Shown here in pieces: positions 3,619 through 14,413 of a stretch of 31,532 nucleotides of DNA. Origin of the DNA: Candidatus Coprovivens excrementavium (GTDB taxonomy: Bacteria > Bacillota_I > Bacilli_A > RF39 > UBA660); assembly GCA_018711445.1 (NCBI GenBank), contig DVII01000124.1:1-31532 (forward strand). The letters are read 5' to 3'. The position numbers were made by a program, and so were the translations under genes. The notes beneath the pieces were generated by a model, which was not told where the DNA came from, ran no database searches, and worked only from the letters and a program-made list of their open reading frames with translations. How positions within the stretch are numbered: the first letter of the stretch is position 1; each line of letters opens with the position of its first letter.

Positions 3619-3620
3619 AT

Positions 3621-3771
3621 ATAATATCGATTTTTGTCGATTTAAATAAAAAAATGTCGAATTTATTTCTTTTTTATCGTAAATTGTTTAATTTTGTCGA
3701 TTTTTGTCGTCCAGTATCTATTTATAATGTATTTAGTTTTATAAAGTCGAAATATGTCGTATTATGTCAAT
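3621..3771 (+). repeat. 10-bp-phased array of Spo0A-box-like heptamers (unit consensus WWWWTGTCGA)
   Basis: Heptamers start at 3625 TATCGAT, 3635 TGTCGAT, 3655 TGTCGAA, 3675 TATCGTA, 3695 TGTCGAT, 3705 TGTCGTC, 3745 AGTCGAA, 3755 TGTCGTA and 3765 TGTCAAT. Weaker copies are at 3685 and 3715. All are in the same register modulo 10. Confidence 0.9.
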
Positions 3772-7243: not shown

Positions 7244-8914
7244 ATGGCAACAAACAGAACAAACGTAACTTTTAACGATGGAACGGTTATTGAGGTAGAA
7301 AAAGGAACAACTATCTACGAATTGAGTAAATTATATAAATCATCAATGTCCTACAGCATAGTTGGTGCCGAAATAGATAACGAGACTGTTCCAATGGAAA
7401 CAAAGATTACTCGTGCAACTAAATTGGAGTTTATCGATGTTACATCAACCAACGGATACAAAATTAATAAATCTGGCTTAGAATTTGTAACTGAAGTAGC
7501 TTTAAAAGAAACTTTCGGAGATGGTTATGAAGTAACTTTCGATCATTCAATTGCAAATGGTATACATATGACTATTATTTGTGATAAAAAATTTTCCTTA
7601 ACAGACGCTAAAAAACTAAAAACTAAAATGAATGAGATTATTGCTAATGACGAAAGAATATATAACCTTAATGTCGAAAAAAAAGAAGCTATAAACTATT
7701 ACAATAAAGTTAAAGCTCCTGAAAAAGCTCAAAACATTCATAATTTAACTAATAATATTGTTACAGTATATAAACTTCGTAATTACATAAATTACTTTTA
7801 TTCTGAAATGCCTTATTCAACTGGCTGCTTAAATAAATATGATTTAGTGTTCTTAGGAGATAATAAACTTGTTTTATTATTTCCATCACCTAACGCTAAA
7901 TACAAAGTACCAGAATATATTCATTATCAAAATGTTATTAAATGTTTTGAGGAAGGTAAAAAGTGGATTAACGCTTTAGGATTGCCTTACATACCAGATT
8001 TAAATAAAAAAATATCTGACTGTGAAATAGAAGACTTAATTAAACTTGTTGAAACAAATTTCAATAATGAAATACATGATTTAGTAGATGATATAATTAA
8101 AAAGAATGCTAGATATGTTTTATTTGCTGGTCCATCTTCATCTGGGAAAACTACAACCACTAAAAAAGTTGCTCTTCAACTTCGAAGTCGAGGATACGAA
8201 GTATTAGTAATTTCGGTTGATAACTATTTTAAAGATAAGAAAGATACACCTAAAGACGAAAAAGGAAATTATGACTTTGAATGTTTACAAGCTTTAGACC
8301 TAAAACTGCTTAATAAACAATTAAAAGATTTAATTCAAGGTAAGAAAGTAAATTTACCTGAGTACAACTTCGTATCTGGTGTAAAAGAATACAATAATGA
8401 ACCTATTAAATTAGGAGAAAAAGCTATTATCTTAATGGAAGGATTACATTGTTTGAATGATGAAATGACTCCTGACTTAGATGCAAATCTAAAATATAAA
8501 GTATATTTAAGTCCATTTATACCTATAAATGTTGACCGCCATAATTATATTTCTACTACTGATTTAAGATTAATGCGTCGCATAGTTAGAGACAATCGAA
8601 CTCGTGCTACAGATGTTGGTGCCACGATAAATTATTGGAATTCTGTTCGTAGTGGTGAAGAAAAATATATTTTTCCGTATATAAATAATGTCAATAAAAT
8701 AGTTAATACATCACTCATATATGAAGTTGGAGTATTAAAAGTCTTTGTAGAACCATTATTATATTCAGTAAAAAGTAACTCTTCAGCATATAATGAAGCT
8801 CGACGTTTAATTAATTCTTTACGTGGTTTCTACCCAATTCCTTCTGATTATGTTGGAGATGACTCAATACTACGTGAATTTATTGGTAAAAGTGCATTTG
8901 AAACTTATAAATAG
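7244..8914 (+). CDS. Uridine/nucleoside kinase with N-terminal TGS/ThrRS-like domains
   Basis: TGS-like N-terminus (VEKGTTIYEL), ThrRS-editing-like middle, P-loop AGPSSSGKTTT, SVDNYF, DFECLQALD, EGLHCLN, RRIVRD and GEEKYIFPY motifs. Confidence 0.85.
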   Translation: MATNRTNVTFNDGTVIEVEKGTTIYELSKLYKSSMSYSIVGAEIDNETVPMETKITRATKLEFIDVTSTNGYKINKSGLEFVTEVALKETFGDGYEVTFDHSIANGIHMTIICDKKFSLTDAKKLKTKMNEIIANDERIYNLNVEKKEAINYYNKVKAPEKAQNIHNLTNNIVTVYKLRNYINYFYSEMPYSTGCLNKYDLVFLGDNKLVLLFPSPNAKYKVPEYIHYQNVIKCFEEGKKWINALGLPYIPDLNKKISDCEIEDLIKLVETNFNNEIHDLVDDIIKKNARYVLFAGPSSSGKTTTTKKVALQLRSRGYEVLVISVDNYFKDKKDTPKDEKGNYDFECLQALDLKLLNKQLKDLIQGKKVNLPEYNFVSGVKEYNNEPIKLGEKAIILMEGLHCLNDEMTPDLDANLKYKVYLSPFIPINVDRHNYISTTDLRLMRRIVRDNRTRATDVGATINYWNSVRSGEEKYIFPYINNVNKIVNTSLIYEVGVLKVFVEPLLYSVKSNSSAYNEARRLINSLRGFYPIPSDYVGDDSILREFIGKSAFETYK

Positions 8915-8928
8915 AAAGAGGAGATAAA

Positions 8929-9942
8929 ATGATAAAAGTAGCAATTAATGGATTTGGAAGAATAGGAAGATTAGCTTTCCGTGAAATGATAACAGGAAGC
9001 GATTTTGATATTGTTGCAATCAATGATTTAACAGATGCTGAGACTTTAGCATATTTGCTAAAGTATGATACTAATCATCGTTCATTTCATGAAGATATTA
9101 TCAATTTTGAAGGCGATGAAATTGTCATAAAAGGAACTAAAAGAATTAAAGTGTATAGTGAAAAAGATCCTGTGAATTTACCATGGAATGATTTAGGGAT
9201 AGATGTTGTTTTAGAATGTACAGGACATTTTACAAGTATCGAGGATGCCTCTAAACATATAACTGCTGGTGCTAAAAAAGTTATTATTTCTGCTCCAGGA
9301 AAAGGTGACATGAAGACGATCGTTTACAATGTAAACTCTGATACCTTAGATGGAAGCGAAACAGTAATTTCTGCAGCGTCTTGTACTACAAATTGTCTTG
9401 CTCCAGTATTAAAAGTAATCGAAGATAATATTGGTATCGTAAAAGGTTATATGACAACTGTTCATGCTTATACAAACGATCAAGCAACACTTGATATTCC
9501 TCATAAGAAAGGAATCAAAGCTCGTCGTGGTCGTGCTTGCGCAATGAATATTGTTCCTGCTTCAACTGGTGCAGCTAGTGCTATAGGAAAAGTTATACCT
9601 TCTTTATTAGGTAAAATGGATGGTAATGCATTCCGCGTTCCAGTGCCAGATGGCTCAGTTATTGACGTTACTCTTGAATTAAGTAGAAATACAACGGTTG
9701 AAGAAATAAACACGTTGTTTACTAATAATCAAAACGAAACATTAAAAATTACTATGGATCCTGTTGTATCAAGTGATATTCTAGGTAAGAAAACAGGAGC
9801 ATTAGTTGATGGGTTACTAACTAATGTTTTAGAAAGCGAAGGGCGTCAATTAGTAAAAATTATTGCTTGGTATGATAACGAAATGGGTTATACAGCTCAA
9901 ATGATGCGTACCGCTAAAAAATTAATGAGTTTTAACAAATAA
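8929..9942 (+). CDS. gap: Type I glyceraldehyde-3-phosphate dehydrogenase, NAD-type
   Basis: GFGRIGR, NDL, ASCTTNCLAP (catalytic Cys), VHAYTNDQ and WYDNE motifs all canonical. Confidence 0.97.
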   Translation: MIKVAINGFGRIGRLAFREMITGSDFDIVAINDLTDAETLAYLLKYDTNHRSFHEDIINFEGDEIVIKGTKRIKVYSEKDPVNLPWNDLGIDVVLECTGHFTSIEDASKHITAGAKKVIISAPGKGDMKTIVYNVNSDTLDGSETVISAASCTTNCLAPVLKVIEDNIGIVKGYMTTVHAYTNDQATLDIPHKKGIKARRGRACAMNIVPASTGAASAIGKVIPSLLGKMDGNAFRVPVPDGSVIDVTLELSRNTTVEEINTLFTNNQNETLKITMDPVVSSDILGKKTGALVDGLLTNVLESEGRQLVKIIAWYDNEMGYTAQMMRTAKKLMSFNK

Positions 9943-9943
9943 T

Positions 9944-9968
9944 AAAGTGTCTATAAGGCACTTTTTTT
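9944..9968 (+). terminator. Intrinsic terminator after gap
   Basis: AAAGTGTC-tataa-GGCACTTT stem (one G-U pair) plus T tract. Confidence 0.7.
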
Positions 9969-9991
9969 ATGTAAAGACTTATTTTTAAAAA

Positions 9992-10020
9992 TTGAAGTCC
10001 ATCATTAAGTATTCTATAAT
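9992..10020 (+). promoter_or_regulatory. Sigma-A promoter for pgk-tpiA
   Basis: TTGAAG-17 bp-TATAAT. Confidence 0.6.
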
Positions 10021-10035
10021 TAAAGTGGTGATGAT

Positions 10036-11229
10036 ATGAAAAGAAGAATTCAAGACATGGATGTAAAAAACAAAAGAGTATTACTTAGATGTGACTTTAA
10101 TGTGCCTGTCAAAGATAACGTAATCTTAGATGATAGTAAAATAGTAGCTGCTTTAAACACTATTGAATATTTAATAAAAGAAGGAGCTAAAATTATCATC
10201 TTATCACACTTTGGTAAAGTAAAAACAGAAGAAGATAAAGCTAAAAACTCACTAGCTCCAATTGCTGCTCATCTTCAAAAATTAGTTAATACTAAAGTAA
10301 TTTTCTCAAAACAATCACGTAGTTTATACCTTGAAGCCAAAATCGAAAATATGAATCCAGGAGAGATTATAGTTTTAGAAAATACTCGTTTTGAAGATGT
10401 ACCTAATAAATTAGAAAGTGGAAATGATGTTCAACTTGCGATGTATTGGGCTGGTTTAGCCGATATTTTCTGCTTAGACGCTTTCGGTTCAGCTCATCGA
10501 AAACATGCTTCAACATATGGCGTTGCCAAATACTTGCCAAGTTGTATAGGTTTCTTAGTCCAACATGAAGTTGAAATGCTTGATACCTATATTCTAAGAG
10601 CGTCTCATCCTTTTACGATTGTAATGGGAGGTGCCAAAGTTGAGGATAAAGTTGAATTAATTGAATCACTTCTTCCACGCTGTGATCAATTATTACTAAC
10701 TGGTGGAATAGCAAATTCTTGTTTAGCTATTTTAGGATTTAGTGTAGGTAATTCCTTACGAACAACTGATACTGAAGTAATGAACAAGATAAAAAATATC
10801 TTAATTAAATATAAAGATAAAATCATGCTTCCAGTTGATGCAATAGTTGGTCGCGTTTACGATGAAAAATATGTAGAACATGTTAATATTGATAAAGTAG
10901 CTGAAGATGATATTATCTATGATATAGGAATCAAAACAATTAATAAATATGATGAAATAATTAAACAATCAAAAACAATTTTTGTTAATGGAACTGCTGG
11001 TAAATACGAAGATATTAGATTTGCTACAGGAACTAGAGAACTATTAACTCGCATAACTGACAGCAACGCGATAAAAGTTGTTGGTGGTGGAGATGGTGTA
11101 AGTGCAGTTAAACATTTCAAATTAGAAAATCGATTTAACTTCCTATCTACAGGAGGAGGAGCAACTTTAGAATATATAATTCAAGGTGGATTACCAGCTA
11201 TTGACAATATTCCTGATAGTGTAAAATGA
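10036..11229 (+). CDS. pgk: Phosphoglycerate kinase (divergent)
   Basis: RCDFNVP, ENTRF, DAFGSAHR, GGAKVEDK, GGGD and STGGGATLE motifs; some basic-patch substitutions. Confidence 0.93.
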   Translation: MKRRIQDMDVKNKRVLLRCDFNVPVKDNVILDDSKIVAALNTIEYLIKEGAKIIILSHFGKVKTEEDKAKNSLAPIAAHLQKLVNTKVIFSKQSRSLYLEAKIENMNPGEIIVLENTRFEDVPNKLESGNDVQLAMYWAGLADIFCLDAFGSAHRKHASTYGVAKYLPSCIGFLVQHEVEMLDTYILRASHPFTIVMGGAKVEDKVELIESLLPRCDQLLLTGGIANSCLAILGFSVGNSLRTTDTEVMNKIKNILIKYKDKIMLPVDAIVGRVYDEKYVEHVNIDKVAEDDIIYDIGIKTINKYDEIIKQSKTIFVNGTAGKYEDIRFATGTRELLTRITDSNAIKVVGGGDGVSAVKHFKLENRFNFLSTGGGATLEYIIQGGLPAIDNIPDSVK

Positions 11230-11951
11230 AATATTTAGTATGTAACTTAAAAGCTAACAAGATAAAAGAAGATTTGATTACATATGAAAAAGGAATATCT
11301 ACGATTAAGACAGTTCCTGATATTGAATTAATCATATGTCCCTCAACACCTTTCTTATATCTTTTTCAATCATCTAAATATAGTTTAGGAAGTCAAGATA
11401 TATCTCAATTTAACTTAGGACCATATACTGGAGAAACAACGGCTGAACAATTGCACTCTTTGAATGTCAAGTATTCATTAGTTGGTCATAGTGAAAGAAG
11501 AAATTTATTAAAAGAAGATGAACAAACAATTATAACAAAAATAAAAAAATCATATCATAGTCACATTCAACCTATTTATTTTATAGGTGAAACAGGTGAT
11601 AAAAAAGAAATAATAAATGAAACTTTAAAACAACAAATAATAAATATTATAGACGAAGTACCTGATTACAAGCGCCCTAAAATGATTATTGTTTATGAAC
11701 CAATATGGGCGATTGGAACAGGAATAGTTCCGACGAATAATGATATAGAAATACGTATAAAAAATATAAAAAGAATTATTGAAGAAAATTATAATTTAAA
11801 ACTTCCAGTATTATATGGTGGAAGTGTCAACGAAGATAATATAAATGAGTTAATTAAAATAGATGAATTAGATGGCTTTGTTTTAGGCGAGAGCTCAAAA
11901 GAATATAGCGAAGTAGAATATATTTATCAAAAGATTCAAAAAAATATCTAA
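11226..11951 (+). CDS. tpiA: Triosephosphate isomerase (divergent)
   Basis: NLKAN (catalytic Lys), GHSERR, YEPIWAIGTG and YGGSVN motifs; ATGA overlap with pgk. Confidence 0.92.
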   Translation: MKYLVCNLKANKIKEDLITYEKGISTIKTVPDIELIICPSTPFLYLFQSSKYSLGSQDISQFNLGPYTGETTAEQLHSLNVKYSLVGHSERRNLLKEDEQTIITKIKKSYHSHIQPIYFIGETGDKKEIINETLKQQIINIIDEVPDYKRPKMIIVYEPIWAIGTGIVPTNNDIEIRIKNIKRIIEENYNLKLPVLYGGSVNEDNINELIKIDELDGFVLGESSKEYSEVEYIYQKIQKNI

Positions 11952-11958
11952 GTCGACA
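11952..11958 (-). promoter_or_regulatory. 0A-box-like site upstream of the spo0A-like gene
   Basis: TGTCGAC on the minus strand (6/7 match to TGTCGAA), 57 bp upstream of the ATG. Confidence 0.35.
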
Positions 11959-12015
11959 AAATAATACATAATACCAAGACAGTATACTTTAAACTAAGAA
12001 CATAGAAAGAGAAAA

Positions 12016-12780
12016 ATGAATATGAAAAATAATATGAATACATTGGTAGTATGTAGTAAAGAAGAATCGAACAAACTTAAACAAGAAATAGCAGTTTTAA
12101 CAACTGAAATAACTATTAAATACACAGCGGACAATTACAAAGATGCATTGCAAATCATTAATAATTCTGATGATTTGGATGCAATATTAATTGATGGTAC
12201 AATGCCTGGAGAAAATATTTTGAATTTATTAACAAATTATAAAAATGAAATATTATTATCTAGAACTATCATCATTGATAACATTAAATTAGATTGCTAT
12301 AATTTATCAGCATCTAACTATCAAATATTCAATGTTATTCCTAAAAATTACAAAATAAATGAATTGATTATCTCTTTAAAAGAAATAAAGAATAAACAAG
12401 AAAAATATAATTTCCACAAGATATCAATCTATGATAAAGTAGCTGAGATATTAAAAAAATTAGGTATTGCTCCTGATAAAAATGGATTTCATTATTTAAG
12501 AAAAGCAATTTATGAATGTTACTTGGAGCCTTCATTATTAACTTCTATTACTAAAGAAATATATCCTATGTTAGCTGCATCTTTTTCTAAAAAAGAAAGT
12601 TGTATCGAGAGGTCAATTAGAAGTGCAATTGAAACAGGTTGGGATCGTGGAAATTACGAATATTCTAATGAATTATTTTCCAATTGTGTAGATTACTATA
12701 AAACAAAGCCAACTAATGGAGAATTTATAGCTATTATAGTTGACAAAATAATGATGGAAGAAGGAAGAACAATTTATTAA
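12016..12780 (+). CDS. spo0A: Spo0A-family transcription factor with an atypical receiver domain
   Basis: C-terminal LGI-PDKNGFHYLRKAI...ITKEIYP...ERSIRSAIE..W.RGN...KPTNGEFIA matches the Spo0A effector domain; N-terminus has LIDGTMP at the receiver beta3 position. Confidence 0.85.
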   Translation: MNMKNNMNTLVVCSKEESNKLKQEIAVLTTEITIKYTADNYKDALQIINNSDDLDAILIDGTMPGENILNLLTNYKNEILLSRTIIIDNIKLDCYNLSASNYQIFNVIPKNYKINELIISLKEIKNKQEKYNFHKISIYDKVAEILKKLGIAPDKNGFHYLRKAIYECYLEPSLLTSITKEIYPMLAASFSKKESCIERSIRSAIETGWDRGNYEYSNELFSNCVDYYKTKPTNGEFIAIIVDKIMMEEGRTIY

Positions 12781-12818
12781 AAAAGAAATTACTTGCCTAC
12801 CTTGTAATTTCTTTTTTT
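12779..12818 (+). terminator. Intrinsic terminator after spo0A
   Basis: AAAAAAGAAATTAC / GTAATTTCTTTTTT 14-bp inverted repeat with an 11-nt loop. Confidence 0.75.
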
Positions 12819-12831
12819 GTTGTGCTATTAT
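12802..12831 (+). promoter_or_regulatory. Possible promoter for the gpmI-like gene overlapping the terminator
   Basis: TTGTAA-18 bp-TATTAT with TG extension. Confidence 0.35.
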
Positions 12832-12850
12832 GTTAATAGGAGAAATGCTT

Positions 12851-14365
12851 ATGAAGAAGATTTTAACAATTATATTGGATGGCTTTGGAATGCGTGAAGA
12901 TATTTATGGTAACGCTGTGAAAAATGCCGGAATGAACAATTTCATCGATATTTGGAATAACTACCCGCACTGTTTGTTAAAAGCTAGCGGTTCTTCAGTT
13001 GGCCTACCTGATAAACAATGTAGTAGCAGCGAATTAGGTCATGAAATAATAGGAACAGGTCGTTTAATTGAAAATGCTCTTGATGAAATAAATGAAGTTT
13101 TTAAAAGGGAACGCCTAAAATATAATCCTAAATATAATGAAATGATTAATTATTTATCTAATAACCCAACCAGAAGTCTTCATATATTTCATTTATTATC
13201 TGATGGTGGCGTTTCTTCACATATAAATCATCTAAAATGTTTTTTAAATACCCTTAGTCACGATAAAGTAGAAAATAAAATCTATCTTCATTTAGCTGCT
13301 GACGGCCGTGATTCAGATAAACATAAAATATATACATATCTTAAAGAAATTGAAAATAATATTTCTAATAATGTTAAGTTAGCTTCAATTTGTGGTCGTT
13401 ATTATGCTTTAGATGATACAAAAGATTATAAGAGAACAAAAATGTTTTATGACTTGTTATTTGATGGACGAGGTATAGATGCTAAAAATTTACCGCGTTT
13501 TATTGAAAAATGCTATGAAAAGAAACTCTCAGATGAATACTTACCGCCATTAAAAACAAATGACTTTCAAACTCTAGATAATAATGATGTTTTAATCTTT
13601 TTAAATTTTAGTAAAGAAAATCAACTTCAATTATTAGATGCGATATGTAATAAAGACTTTATTGAATTTAATAATTATTCTTTAAATATAAAAGTTTATA
13701 GTTTATTTGAAATAGATAAACATATTAATACCAATTATTTCTTTGAAATGCCAAAAAACAAACATACCCTAACTGAATATTTAGCCGGCCTTGGTTTAAC
13801 TCAAGCTCATATATATGAAAGTATAAAAAATAGTTCTATGAGTTATTACCTAAATGGCAAAAGATATTTAAAGTTAGAAAATTGTGATATCTATAGCATT
13901 GATTCGCCAGTGGTTGATAGCTTTGATTTAAAACCTGAAATGAACGCTTTATCTGTTGCTAAAACAATTATTAAATGCATGGAAAAAGATTATGACTTTA
14001 TATTAGCTAATTTCGCCAATCCTGATGAAGTAGGACATACAGGCAATTATCAAGCAACAATAAATGGCTTACAAGCTGTTGATGTATGTTTAGGCAAAAT
14101 ATTAGAAGTTGCCGAAGAAAATTTTTATAAAGTAATTATAACTTCAAGTCACGCTAATGCTGATACGATTATCGATCGCAATAATAATATAATAACCAAA
14201 AACACATTAAGTCCTGTGCCTTTTATAATAATGGACAAAAAATACAAGTTGAAAAATGGAACGTTAACAAGTTTTGCTCCGACACTTTTAAAGTACATGG
14301 ATATTGCTATCCCTAAAGAGATGAAGGATGCAGAAATTTTAATCGAAAAAAATAAAATATCATGA
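12851..14365 (+). CDS. gpmI: 2,3-bisphosphoglycerate-independent phosphoglycerate mutase homolog with a degenerate active site
   Basis: ILDGFG, SELGH, LSDGGV, DGRD, GRYY, DLKPEM and NFANPDEVGHTG motifs give the family; several catalytic residues are substituted. Start set at ATG 12851 behind AGGAGA. Confidence 0.88.
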   Translation: MKKILTIILDGFGMREDIYGNAVKNAGMNNFIDIWNNYPHCLLKASGSSVGLPDKQCSSSELGHEIIGTGRLIENALDEINEVFKRERLKYNPKYNEMINYLSNNPTRSLHIFHLLSDGGVSSHINHLKCFLNTLSHDKVENKIYLHLAADGRDSDKHKIYTYLKEIENNISNNVKLASICGRYYALDDTKDYKRTKMFYDLLFDGRGIDAKNLPRFIEKCYEKKLSDEYLPPLKTNDFQTLDNNDVLIFLNFSKENQLQLLDAICNKDFIEFNNYSLNIKVYSLFEIDKHINTNYFFEMPKNKHTLTEYLAGLGLTQAHIYESIKNSSMSYYLNGKRYLKLENCDIYSIDSPVVDSFDLKPEMNALSVAKTIIKCMEKDYDFILANFANPDEVGHTGNYQATINGLQAVDVCLGKILEVAEENFYKVIITSSHANADTIIDRNNNIITKNTLSPVPFIIMDKKYKLKNGTLTSFAPTLLKYMDIAIPKEMKDAEILIEKNKIS

Positions 14366-14387
14366 GTAATTTTCGTGATATTTTTTT
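14354..14387 (+). terminator. Intrinsic terminator after gpmI
   Basis: AAAATATCATGA / TCGTGATATTTT stem (one G-U pair) plus T tract. Confidence 0.7.
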
Positions 14388-14413
14388 AAATATTGAAAAA
14401 TTTAACTTTTTTC

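What the first reader, a model, noticed from the sequence alone, without database searches (positions are those of the whole stretch)
10036..14365. spo0A inserted inside the pgk-tpi-gpmI cluster: a possible glycolysis-derived regulatory module
Seen: the order is gap | pgk-tpiA-spo0A | gpmI. gap is canonical, pgk and tpiA carry phosphate-site substitutions and gpmI is heavily degenerate. No terminator hairpin was seen in the 64 bp between tpiA and spo0A, so pgk-tpiA-spo0A may be one transcript. Known: Bacilli normally have cggR-gap-pgk-tpi-pgm-eno, with spo0A elsewhere near spoIVB. Inference: eroded lower-glycolysis enzymes plus a non-phosphorylatable Spo0A may form an undescribed system in which enzyme homologs relay phosphoglycerate or triose status to the regulator. 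Its output could include the boxed yvcK (gluconeogenic growth factor)-whiA operon.
Basis: inference. Interest (0 to 1): 0.75.

Follow-up and report, generated by a model that had tools for sequence, protein, structure and literature searches.

The report
Phospho-pocket-less Spo0A beside degenerate GpmI paralog
In this uncultured gut bacterium (Candidatus Coprovivens, order RF39) the sporulation master-regulator gene spo0A sits between glycolysis genes, as it does across its whole family, but here the protein has lost the pocket needed for its usual phosphate switch and its neighbour is a catalytically crippled spare copy of phosphoglycerate mutase; nothing yet shows that the two work together.

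Summary
The gene order gap | pgk-tpiA-spo0A | gpmI is real. There is no hairpin between tpiA and spo0A, and terminator-like hairpins follow gap and spo0A.

It is not a local insertion. tpi-spo0A adjacency holds in 48 of 60 loci from other RF39 genera and in 21 of 24 genus genomes. Fourteen other families of the class lack it, and 9 of 10 tested there keep the classic spoIVB-spo0A pair.

Two features are specific to the Coprovivens lineage:
- **Spo0A receiver:** it lost the acidic pair (DD to CS), the switch Thr (to Asp) and the Lys-Pro motif. It kept the acceptor-position Asp and an almost invariant DNA-binding domain.
- **Adjacent gpmI:** it is a divergent paralog lacking four substrate residues and two Mn ligands, yet under purifying selection. 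A canonical gpmI lies elsewhere in 25 of 27 genus genomes.

PGK and TPI keep their catalytic residues. The genus still carries spoIVA, spoIIGA and spoVA.

Best reading: this is the true Spo0A ortholog, now probably independent of phosphorylation and controlled through its amount. GpmI* is a separate transcription unit of unknown new role.

The proposed enzyme-to-regulator relay is neither supported nor excluded. Receiver and GpmI degeneracy co-occur in only one related clade, with counterexamples both ways.

The parts
8929..9942 (+). gap, type I glyceraldehyde-3-phosphate dehydrogenase, canonical
   Evidence: TIGR01534 414 bits (cut-off 367), Pfam Gp_dh_N/C; catalytic SCTTN motif
9944..9964 (+). 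terminator-like hairpin plus T-run after gap
   Evidence: -9.3 kcal/mol, z -2.6
9992..10020 (+). sigma-70-like promoter candidate for pgk (TTGAAG-17-TATAAT)
   Evidence: consensus match only, function inferred
10036..11229 (+). pgk, phosphoglycerate kinase; single copy; catalytic residues intact
   Evidence: Pfam PGK 407 bits; alignment to 4DG5; motifs invariant in genus; single copy; dN/dS 0.03-0.10
11226..11951 (+). tpiA, triosephosphate isomerase; N/K/H/E, loop 6 and loop 7 intact; loop 8 reads GE; fastest-evolving gene of the cluster and absent from about half of the genus
   Evidence: TIM found in 14 of 27 genus genomes; dN/dS 0.08-0.24
11952..11958 (+). GTCGACA: 0A-box-like word (6 of 7 of TTCGACA, the reverse of TGTCGAA) directly after the tpiA stop; conserved upstream of spo0A across RF39
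   Evidence: TCGACA upstream of spo0A in 46 of 55 RF39 loci, about 2 expected by composition; role as Spo0A site or promoter element is inferred
12016..12780 (+). spo0A* : Spo0A ortholog made of a pseudo-receiver (residues about 1-130) and a Spo0A_C DNA-binding domain (residues 142-245, nt 12439-12750)
   Evidence: Pfam Spo0A_C 111 bits; 1LQ1/1FC3 E 1e-22; model pLDDT 85.6, C-domain TM 0.90 to 1LQ1, N-domain TM 0.76 to Spo0A receiver 5WQ0; pocket residues C13 S14 D60 D88 K110; only Spo0A_C copy in the genome
12779..12817 (+). intrinsic-terminator-like hairpin (14-bp stem) plus T-run after spo0A*, conserved in the genus
   Evidence: -11.8 kcal/mol, z -5.3, 0 of 200 shuffles
12802..12831 (+). 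promoter candidate for gpmI* (TTGTAA-18-TATTAT with TG), conserved as TGcTATTAT in the genus
   Evidence: inferred
12830..14365 (+). gpmI* : divergent iPGM paralog (likely true start ATG 12851, where genus-wide conservation begins). Keeps D12 S62 H66 R153 D154 R185 K336 D403 H407 H445; lost H123 R191 R261 R264 D444 H462
   Evidence: canonical paralog at G000:C308:4112-5620 (-) and in 25 of 27 genus genomes; dN/dS 0.07-0.12

Best explanation
The gene at 12016-12780 is the orthologous, single-copy Spo0A of Candidatus Coprovivens (order RF39, uncultured gut Bacilli). An ancestor of the RF39 family moved spo0A from the classic spoIVB-spo0A position to a site downstream of tpi inside gap-pgk-tpi-gpmI, and it has stayed there since.

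In the Coprovivens lineage the receiver became a pseudo-receiver. The Mg-binding acidic pair is gone (C13 S14), the switch Thr is now Asp (D88) and Lys-Pro reads Lys-Asn. The DNA-reading domain is almost frozen.

I infer that activity is no longer set by a phosphorelay or kinase but by how much protein is made. Two inputs are likely: read-through from the pgk-tpiA transcript, since no terminator intervenes, and a conserved TCGACA (0A-box-like) element directly upstream, which may be autoregulatory. Targets are 0A-type boxes such as the phased array before yvcK-whiA.

Because most species of the genus keep spoIVA, spoIIGA, spoVA and a sigF-like gene, Spo0A* most likely still starts sporulation.

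gpmI* is a separate sigma-A-type transcription unit behind a terminator. It is the old syntenic iPGM copy, and it lost substrate and metal residues. A canonical gpmI, nearest to those of other RF39 genera, is present elsewhere in the genome. GpmI* is kept by selection for an unknown role that is not phosphoglycerate mutase.

SHOWN: orthology and synteny, residue states, paralogy, purifying selection, hairpins. INFERRED: loss of phosphorylation, control through amount, box function, role in sporulation.
For: SYNTENY
- pgk-(tpi)-spo0A-gpmI is found in 21 of 24 genus genomes.
- tpi lies directly upstream of spo0A in 48 of 60 loci from other RF39 genera.
- Spo0A_C is present in 197 of 201 RF39 genomes.
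- In 14 other families of the class spo0A is not near tpi, pgk or gpmI, and 9 of 10 tested have spoIVB upstream.

RECEIVER
- 57 of 60 other-genus Spo0A proteins read DD/D/T-or-S/K. All genus members read CS (or GS, ST, SK, SN)/D/D/K-or-lost.
- The predicted fold is still CheY-like.
- dN/dS is 0.07-0.24 for the pseudo-receiver and 0.01-0.04 for the C-domain within the main clade.
- The E, R, R of the recognition helix are kept.
- One species (G024, locus L020) has only the C-domain: 121 aa, starting 77 nt after tpi. The receiver is therefore dispensable there.

SPORULATION GENES
- SpoIVA is present in 19 of 27 and SpoIIGA in 18 of 27 genus genomes, mostly the same ones.
- The window's genome has SpoVAC x4 and sigF-like genes next to spoVA.
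- Each genome has one Spo0A_C copy at most.
- RF39 was already predicted to form spores (PMC10868615).

TRANSCRIPTION SIGNALS.

GpmI*.
Against: - No RNA or protein data exist for this uncultured organism, so phosphorylation-independence is inferred from residues alone.
- The acceptor-position Asp (D60) and a Lys are conserved, and a new Asp (D88) sits in the pocket. An unorthodox phosphorylation chemistry is not excluded.
- SpoIIGA and sigE were not found in the window's own genome, which is only 82% complete.
- No convincing sigma-A or sigma-H promoter could be read upstream of spo0A*. TCGACA could be a promoter element rather than a Spo0A site.
- dS is saturated (>1) in all pairs, so the dN/dS values are rough.
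- The very long conservation of tpi-spo0A-gpmI, and the retention of degenerate iPGM and TPI-like genes next to spo0A in tiny genomes, hint at a functional tie that this explanation leaves unexplained.
Confidence: 0.6

Rival explanations
1. First reader's module: the degenerate GpmI*, perhaps with TPI or PGK, binds the Spo0A* pseudo-receiver and relays metabolic status (triose or phosphoglycerate level) to the regulator, replacing the phosphorelay.
For: - The adjacency has been conserved across a whole family of strongly reduced genomes.
- GpmI* is kept under purifying selection although a canonical copy exists.
- Receiver and GpmI degeneracy co-occur in Coprovivens, L072, L075 and L078. In contrast, 29 of 30 loci with a canonical receiver have a canonical GpmI.
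- Degenerate TPI-like genes are kept upstream of spo0A in several genera.
- In G193 the degenerate GpmI is the only iPGM, yet it stays intact.
Against: - gpmI* is a separate unit behind a conserved terminator.
- GpmI* lost H123, R191, R261 and R264, the phosphoglycerate contacts.
- The co-occurring lineages form one clade in the GpmI tree (96/98 support) and share the closest PGKs, so there are few independent events.
- Counterexamples are L061, L081, L093 and L095.
- A degenerate GpmI occurs without spo0A (L076), and spo0A occurs without a downstream gpmI in 30 of 60 loci.
- PGK and TPI here are ordinary enzymes.
Confidence: 0.12
2. Spo0A* is still a phosphorylated response regulator with a rebuilt pocket: D60 accepts the phosphoryl group, D88 or other residues replace the lost acidic pair for metal binding, and a lineage-specific kinase acts on it.
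For: - D60 is nearly invariant and a Lys near the beta5 end is kept in the main clade.
- A new, invariant Asp-Asn appears at the switch-Thr position.
- The receiver is under purifying selection.
- The genome encodes other two-component receivers, so kinases are available.
Against: - Both Mg-binding acids, the switch Thr and the Lys-Pro motif are replaced. By established receiver-domain knowledge these are needed for phosphotransfer and for the activation switch.
- There is no Pfam Response_reg hit.
- One species drops the receiver altogether (L020), and the asporogenous subclade also loses the Lys.
Confidence: 0.15
3. Relic: Coprovivens is losing sporulation. Spo0A* and GpmI* are decaying leftovers with no present function, and their linkage is inherited gene order only.
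For: - A subclade of the genus (G021, G017, G020, G041, G016, G011) lacks spoIVA and spoIIGA and has a more degenerate or missing Spo0A*.
- tpi and eno are being lost in the genus.
- Other RF39 genera without spoIVA carry truncated Spo0A.
Against: - All ORFs are intact, and the C-domain is 95-98% identical across most of the main clade, with dN/dS 0.01-0.04.
- The replacement residues in the pocket are themselves conserved.
- GpmI* has 120 invariant columns and dN/dS about 0.1.
- Truncated Spo0A persists next to tpi in six asporogenous genera with 0.7-1.2 Mb genomes, which argues for a retained function.
Confidence: 0.08

Closest known systems
Spo0A of Bacillus and Clostridium (structures 1LQ1, 1FC3, receiver 5WQ0/1QMP)
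   Same: Same two-domain build. The C-domain is 40-42% identical with TM 0.9, and the recognition-helix E/R/R are kept. It is the single copy in a genome that carries sporulation genes. A 0A-like box lies upstream of its own gene.
   Different: The receiver lacks the acidic pair, the switch Thr and Lys-Pro. It scores below the NCBIfam equivalog cut-off. It lies after tpi instead of after spoIVB.
Atypical or phosphorylation-independent response regulators and pseudo-receivers (e.g. HP1043/HsrA, ChxR, Streptomyces GlnR and WhiI, RitR; from my own knowledge, not tested here)
   Same: A CheY-like fold is retained while the phospho-pocket residues are replaced, and the output domain stays intact.
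   Different: As far as my literature searches reached, none of them is the master regulator of endospore formation, and none is described for Spo0A.
B. subtilis sad67 and Spo0A-C constructs (receiver-deleted, constitutively active laboratory alleles; own knowledge)
   Same: Natural receiver-less Spo0A occurs in G024 (121 aa) and in asporogenous RF39 genera (122-174 aa), directly after tpi.
   Different: These are natural alleles fixed in lineages. The window's own protein keeps a full-length pseudo-receiver.
Cofactor-independent phosphoglycerate mutase GpmI (B. stearothermophilus 1EJJ)
   Same: Full-length two-domain iPGM homolog. It passes TIGR01307 and keeps the nucleophile Ser62 and 5 of 7 metal ligands.
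   Different: It lost H123, R191, R261, R264, D444 and H462. It is a second copy beside a canonical one. It belongs to an RF39 clade in which several lineages are degenerate in different ways.
B. subtilis cggR-gapA-pgk-tpi-pgm-eno operon (own knowledge)
   Same: The gap-pgk-tpi-gpmI order is kept.
   Different: No cggR or eno is present at the locus. spo0A is intercalated. Terminators split the cluster into gap | pgk-tpi-spo0A | gpmI*. The S10 ribosomal operon follows.

Membership tests
Spo0A (sporulation response regulator) | Spo0A_C DNA-binding/transactivation domain | tested here: met
   Pfam PF08769 111 bits versus cut-off 25; phmmer to 1LQ1 8e-23; fold TM 0.90
Spo0A (sporulation response regulator) | Receiver domain with phospho-acceptor pocket (D10, D11, D56, T84, K106-P, B. 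subtilis numbering) | tested here: not met
   C13, S14, D60, D88, K110-N; no Pfam Response_reg hit; the CheY-like fold itself is predicted
Spo0A (sporulation response regulator) | NCBIfam equivalog TIGR02875 trusted cut-off | tested here: not met
   122 bits versus 200
Spo0A (sporulation response regulator) | Orthology: single copy at the position held by canonical Spo0A in sister genera | tested here: met
   one Spo0A_C per genus genome at most; same tpi-spo0A-gpmI slot as canonical Spo0A in other RF39 genera
Spo0A (sporulation response regulator) | Required for initiation of sporulation; activated by phosphorylation | not testable with these tools
   uncultured organism; only the presence of sporulation genes could be shown
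2,3-BPG-independent phosphoglycerate mutase (GpmI) | Family HMM TIGR01307 above cut-off; two-domain architecture | tested here: met
   406 bits versus 331; Metalloenzyme plus iPGM_N
2,3-BPG-independent phosphoglycerate mutase (GpmI) | Two-Mn site (D12, S62, D444, H445; D403, H407, H462) | tested here: not met
   D444S and H462N, fixed in nearly the whole genus
2,3-BPG-independent phosphoglycerate mutase (GpmI) | Substrate contacts H123, R153, D154, R185, R191, R261, R264, K336 | tested here: not met
   H123S, R191D, R261S, R264N; the other four kept
Triosephosphate isomerase | Catalytic N10, K12, H95, E165; loops 6 and 7 | tested here: met
   CNLKANK, GHSERR, YEPIWAIGTG, YGGS; loop 8 reads GE instead of GG
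Phosphoglycerate kinase | 3-PG basic patch, catalytic Lys, GGGD hinge motif | tested here: met
   RCDFNVP, ENTRFE, AHRKHAS, GGAKVEDK, GGGDG
Operon pgk-tpiA-spo0A (one transcript) | No terminator between the genes; RNA spanning the junction | tested here: inconclusive
   no hairpin in the 64-nt gap, but a conserved TCGACA element suggests an own promoter or operator; no RNA data could be laid

The most novel reading that the evidence does not exclude
In RF39 bacteria Spo0A has been uncoupled from spoIVB and wired into the lower-glycolysis cluster. In Coprovivens it works as a phosphorylation-independent switch whose pseudo-receiver is read by the neighbouring iPGM-derived pseudoenzyme, and/or is driven by glycolytic-operon transcription. 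Carbon flux, rather than a kinase or phosphorelay, would then decide entry into sporulation. In asporogenous relatives the receiver-less Spo0A would survive as a metabolic or cell-envelope regulator.
Probability: 0.1. Interest if true: 0.85.

Novelty: new variant of a known kind. Interest (0 to 1): 0.6.

Why it matters
Every sporulation-initiation architecture described so far, whether phosphorelay or direct orphan kinases (PMC6136694, PMC11210211), ends in phosphorylation of the Spo0A receiver.

This lineage keeps core sporulation genes, yet its only Spo0A lacks the metal-binding pocket. It would be a natural case of phosphorylation-independent Spo0A control. Alternatively it is a snapshot of how sporulation is dismantled in gut bacteria with shrinking genomes.

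The family-wide tpi-spo0A-gpmI linkage, the survival of receiver-less Spo0A in six spoIVA-less genera, and the repeated degeneration of the adjacent iPGM are comparative facts. I did not find them in the papers I searched. They give concrete, cloneable proteins for testing.

Tried and rejected
- **RNA evidence for co-transcription:** The look-up of sequencing runs listed no RNA holder for 9900-14400, so no reads were laid.
- **Complex prediction of GpmI* (alignment A3) with Spo0A* (alignment A2):** no answer, score 0.00, controls not run. This is not evidence either way.
- **Genome-wide search for clusters of TGTCG words:** only the yvcK-whiA array (C42:3635-3705) and one 3-site cluster on C299 were found, and none at the glycolytic genes apart from the single GTCGACA. 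TGTCGAA in the window occurs 5 times against 2.3 expected, which is not significant.
- **Reading a sigma-A or sigma-H promoter upstream of spo0A*:** no convincing -35/-10 pair with proper spacing.
- **dN/dS:** dS exceeds 1 in every pair, so only the order of magnitude is usable.
- **sigE (TIGR02835) and SpoIIGA in the window's own genome:** not found in an 82%-complete assembly. SpoIIGA is present in 18 of 27 genus genomes.
- **Contamination as the source of the sporulation contigs:** rejected. Their GC is 25-30%, like the genome, and the genes recur on long contigs of sister species.
- **GpmI* as a decaying pseudogene:** rejected. The ORFs are intact and conserved throughout the genus.

Full report
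WHAT IS THERE

The window is contig C42 of a 2.2-Mb, 345-contig, 82%-complete MAG with 28% GC. Close relatives are deposited as Candidatus Coprovivens or 'uncultured Bacilli' from animal guts. The genus was assigned to order RF39, family CAG-1000, when it was named (PMC8035907).

The ORFs, all on the + strand, are:
- a 556-aa uridine-kinase-like gene
- gap, 8929-9942
- pgk, 10036-11229
- tpiA, 11226-11951
- a 254-aa Spo0A_C protein, 12016-12780
- an iPGM-family gene, 12830-14365
- then the S10 ribosomal operon

The signals between the genes are as follows:
- Hairpins with T-runs follow gap and the Spo0A gene.
- The 64-nt tpiA-spo0A spacer does not fold.
- A sigma-70-like promoter precedes pgk.
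- A conserved extended -10 element precedes the iPGM gene.

THE SPO0A HOMOLOG (Spo0A*)

Its C-terminal domain is a true Spo0A DNA-binding domain:
- Pfam 111 bits
- 1LQ1 E-value 8e-23
- predicted fold TM 0.90 at 40-42% identity
- the E, R, R of the recognition helix are kept

The N-terminal half is predicted to fold like a receiver (TM 0.76 to the Spo0A receiver 5WQ0). It gets no Pfam Response_reg hit, and the whole protein scores below the NCBIfam Spo0A cut-off.

Aligned with canonical Spo0A, the pocket differs as follows:
- The acidic pair is C13-S14.
- The acceptor-position Asp is kept (D60).
- The switch Thr is D88.
- Lys-Pro is Lys-Asn.

These replacement residues are conserved across the genus. 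dN/dS is about 0.07-0.24 for the pseudo-receiver and 0.01-0.04 for the C-domain within the main clade, though dS is saturated. It is the only Spo0A_C gene in this genome, and no genus genome has more than one.

SYNTENY

The order pgk-(tpi)-spo0A*-gpmI* recurs in 21 of 24 genus genomes first searched. Spo0A_C is present in 197 of 201 RF39 genomes, covering 98 of 99 genera.

In 60 loci from other RF39 genera:
- tpi lies directly upstream of spo0A in 48.
- An iPGM gene lies within 3.5 kb downstream in 30, and within 150 nt in 14.
- 57 of the 60 Spo0A proteins have the canonical DD/D/T-or-S/K pocket.

In 14 other families of the same class spo0A is not near tpi, pgk or gpmI. In 9 of 10 tested there it follows spoIVB. 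The RF39 position is therefore a derived but ancient relocation, not an insertion in this genome.

The word TCGACA, usually as TTCGACAAA, is the reverse of the 0A box TGTCGAA. It stands upstream of spo0A in 46 of 55 RF39 loci, where about 2 would be expected from base composition. It is always in the same orientation. In the window it starts one base after the tpiA stop codon (11952-11958).

Many other genera have a terminator between tpi and this element. Coprovivens does not.

IS THE ORGANISM A SPORE FORMER?

- SpoIVA is present above cut-off in 19 of 27 genus genomes.
- SpoIIGA is present in 18 of 27.
- They are mostly the same genomes, and the genes often lie on long contigs.
- The window's genome has SpoIVA, four SpoVAC/EB genes and sigF-like genes next to spoVA, on contigs with the genomic GC.

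RF39 was already predicted to sporulate (PMC10868615). That paper does not mention synteny, receivers or glycolysis.

A subclade of the genus (G021, G017, G020, G041, plus G016 and G011) lacks both marker genes. Its Spo0A* is more degenerate (73-77 bits), remnant or absent.

Six other RF39 genera with truncated or receiver-less Spo0A (122-232 aa, 0-76 nt after tpi) have no SpoIVA. Four genera with canonical Spo0A have it. Main-clade Coprovivens is thus the odd case: sporulation genes are kept, but the only Spo0A lacks the phospho-pocket.

One species (G024) has only the C-domain.

THE ENZYMES

gap is canonical.

PGK keeps all catalytic motifs. It is single-copy, and the checked motifs are nearly invariant in the genus.

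TPI keeps N, K, H, E, loop 6 and loop 7; loop 8 reads GE. It is nevertheless the least constrained gene of the cluster. TIM is found in only 14 of 27 genus genomes, and in the others nothing lies between pgk and spo0A*.

Enolase is found in only 12 of 27 genus genomes, three of them with an internal stop. In several other RF39 genera the tpi upstream of spo0A has lost loop 6 or even H95 and E165.

The iPGM gene next to spo0A* (GpmI*):
- It has lost H123, R191, R261, R264, D444 and H462.
- It keeps D12, S62, H66, R153, D154, R185, K336, D403, H407 and H445.
- The loss pattern, with D444S and H462N nearly fixed, is genus-wide.
- 120 columns are invariant across the genus.
- dN/dS is about 0.07-0.12.

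25 of the 27 genus genomes also carry a canonical iPGM elsewhere, scoring 600-670 bits; the exceptions are G013 and G016.

Other RF39 genera have a single iPGM, the syntenic one.

In a tree, GpmI* falls in an RF39 group that contains canonical syntenic copies and several differently degenerate lineages. The canonical Coprovivens copy groups with the syntenic copies of other genera.

Among the 144 top 50%-identity clusters that could be aligned, 131 are canonical at all 16 sites. The degenerate clusters mostly sit in the same slot after spo0A:
- L072 and L075 sit after spo0A, with tpi upstream.
- L078 sits after spo0A.
- L076 keeps the gene before the S10 operon without spo0A.
- P0130 lies elsewhere.

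In G193 the degenerate copy is the only iPGM.

DO THE TWO DEGENERACIES GO TOGETHER?

Outside the genus, 36 loci have both genes:

| Receiver | GpmI | Loci |
|---|---|---|
| canonical | canonical | 29 |
| canonical | degenerate | 1 (L061, spoIVA present) |
| defective or missing | canonical | 3 (L081, L093, L095) |
| defective | degenerate | 3 (L072 reads LS, L075 reads -D, L078 reads DS) |

Coprovivens adds one more joint case. The trend is real. However, Coprovivens, L072 and L075 form one supported clade in the GpmI tree and have the closest PGKs. The number of independent events is therefore one or very few.

INTERPRETATION

The best-supported reading is an orthologous Spo0A that has become independent of phosphorylation. 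It is probably controlled through its amount, by read-through from pgk-tpiA and by a conserved 0A-like element. The neighbouring iPGM is a retained, non-mutase paralog transcribed on its own.

The long-lived linkage, and the retention of crippled enzyme homologs beside spo0A in very small genomes, remain unexplained. It has no direct support, and GpmI* lacks the residues needed to bind phosphoglycerate.

An unorthodox but still phosphorylated receiver, and a decaying relic, are the other rivals.

Noticed in passing
window 3620-3770: Array of TGTCGA/TGTCGT/TATCGA words in about 10-bp phase just upstream of yvcK-whiA. It is the densest TGTCG cluster in the whole (fragmentary) genome. It was already noted by the scan (e1-5296368) and is a plausible Spo0A* target.
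   Followed up: partly
genus genomes G001-G042: Lower glycolysis is eroding in the genus. TIM is found in only 14 of 27 genomes and enolase in 12 of 27 (three with an internal stop codon). gap, pgk and a canonical gpmI are almost always kept.
   Followed up: partly
L059, L061, L064, L065, L066, L067, L071 (tpi upstream of spo0A): In several other RF39 genera the TPI homolog has lost loop 6. In L064 it has also lost H95 and E165, yet the ORF is kept directly upstream of spo0A. These are possible TPI pseudoenzymes.
   Followed up: no
L091-L096 (G064, G052, G046, G051, G058, G043): Six RF39 genera with 0.7-1.2 Mb genomes and no SpoIVA keep a truncated or receiver-less Spo0A (122-232 aa) 0-76 nt after tpi. 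The Spo0A DNA-binding domain seems to outlive sporulation.
   Followed up: partly
L061, L064, L111, L117, L139 and others, upstream of spo0A: In canonical RF39 genera TTCGACA is followed 17-19 nt later by a conserved CTCTAGAAAT-like word. This may be the spo0A promoter, with a sigma-H-like -10 (output).
   Followed up: no
window 7244-8914 and L055, L062, L075, L081: A 556-aa protein with a C-terminal uridine-kinase/PRK domain and an unassigned N-terminal half of about 280 aa is conserved directly upstream of gap across RF39.
   Followed up: no
G000:C195:1827-4308 and C130:4299-6683: There are two separate clusters in which a sigF-like sigma-factor gene is followed by spoVAC/spoVAEB genes in the same genome.
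   Followed up: no
G030 (L024, L029): A 0.9-Mb genome of another family in the class has two canonical spo0A genes, one of them in a tpi-spo0A-gpmI arrangement like RF39.
   Followed up: no
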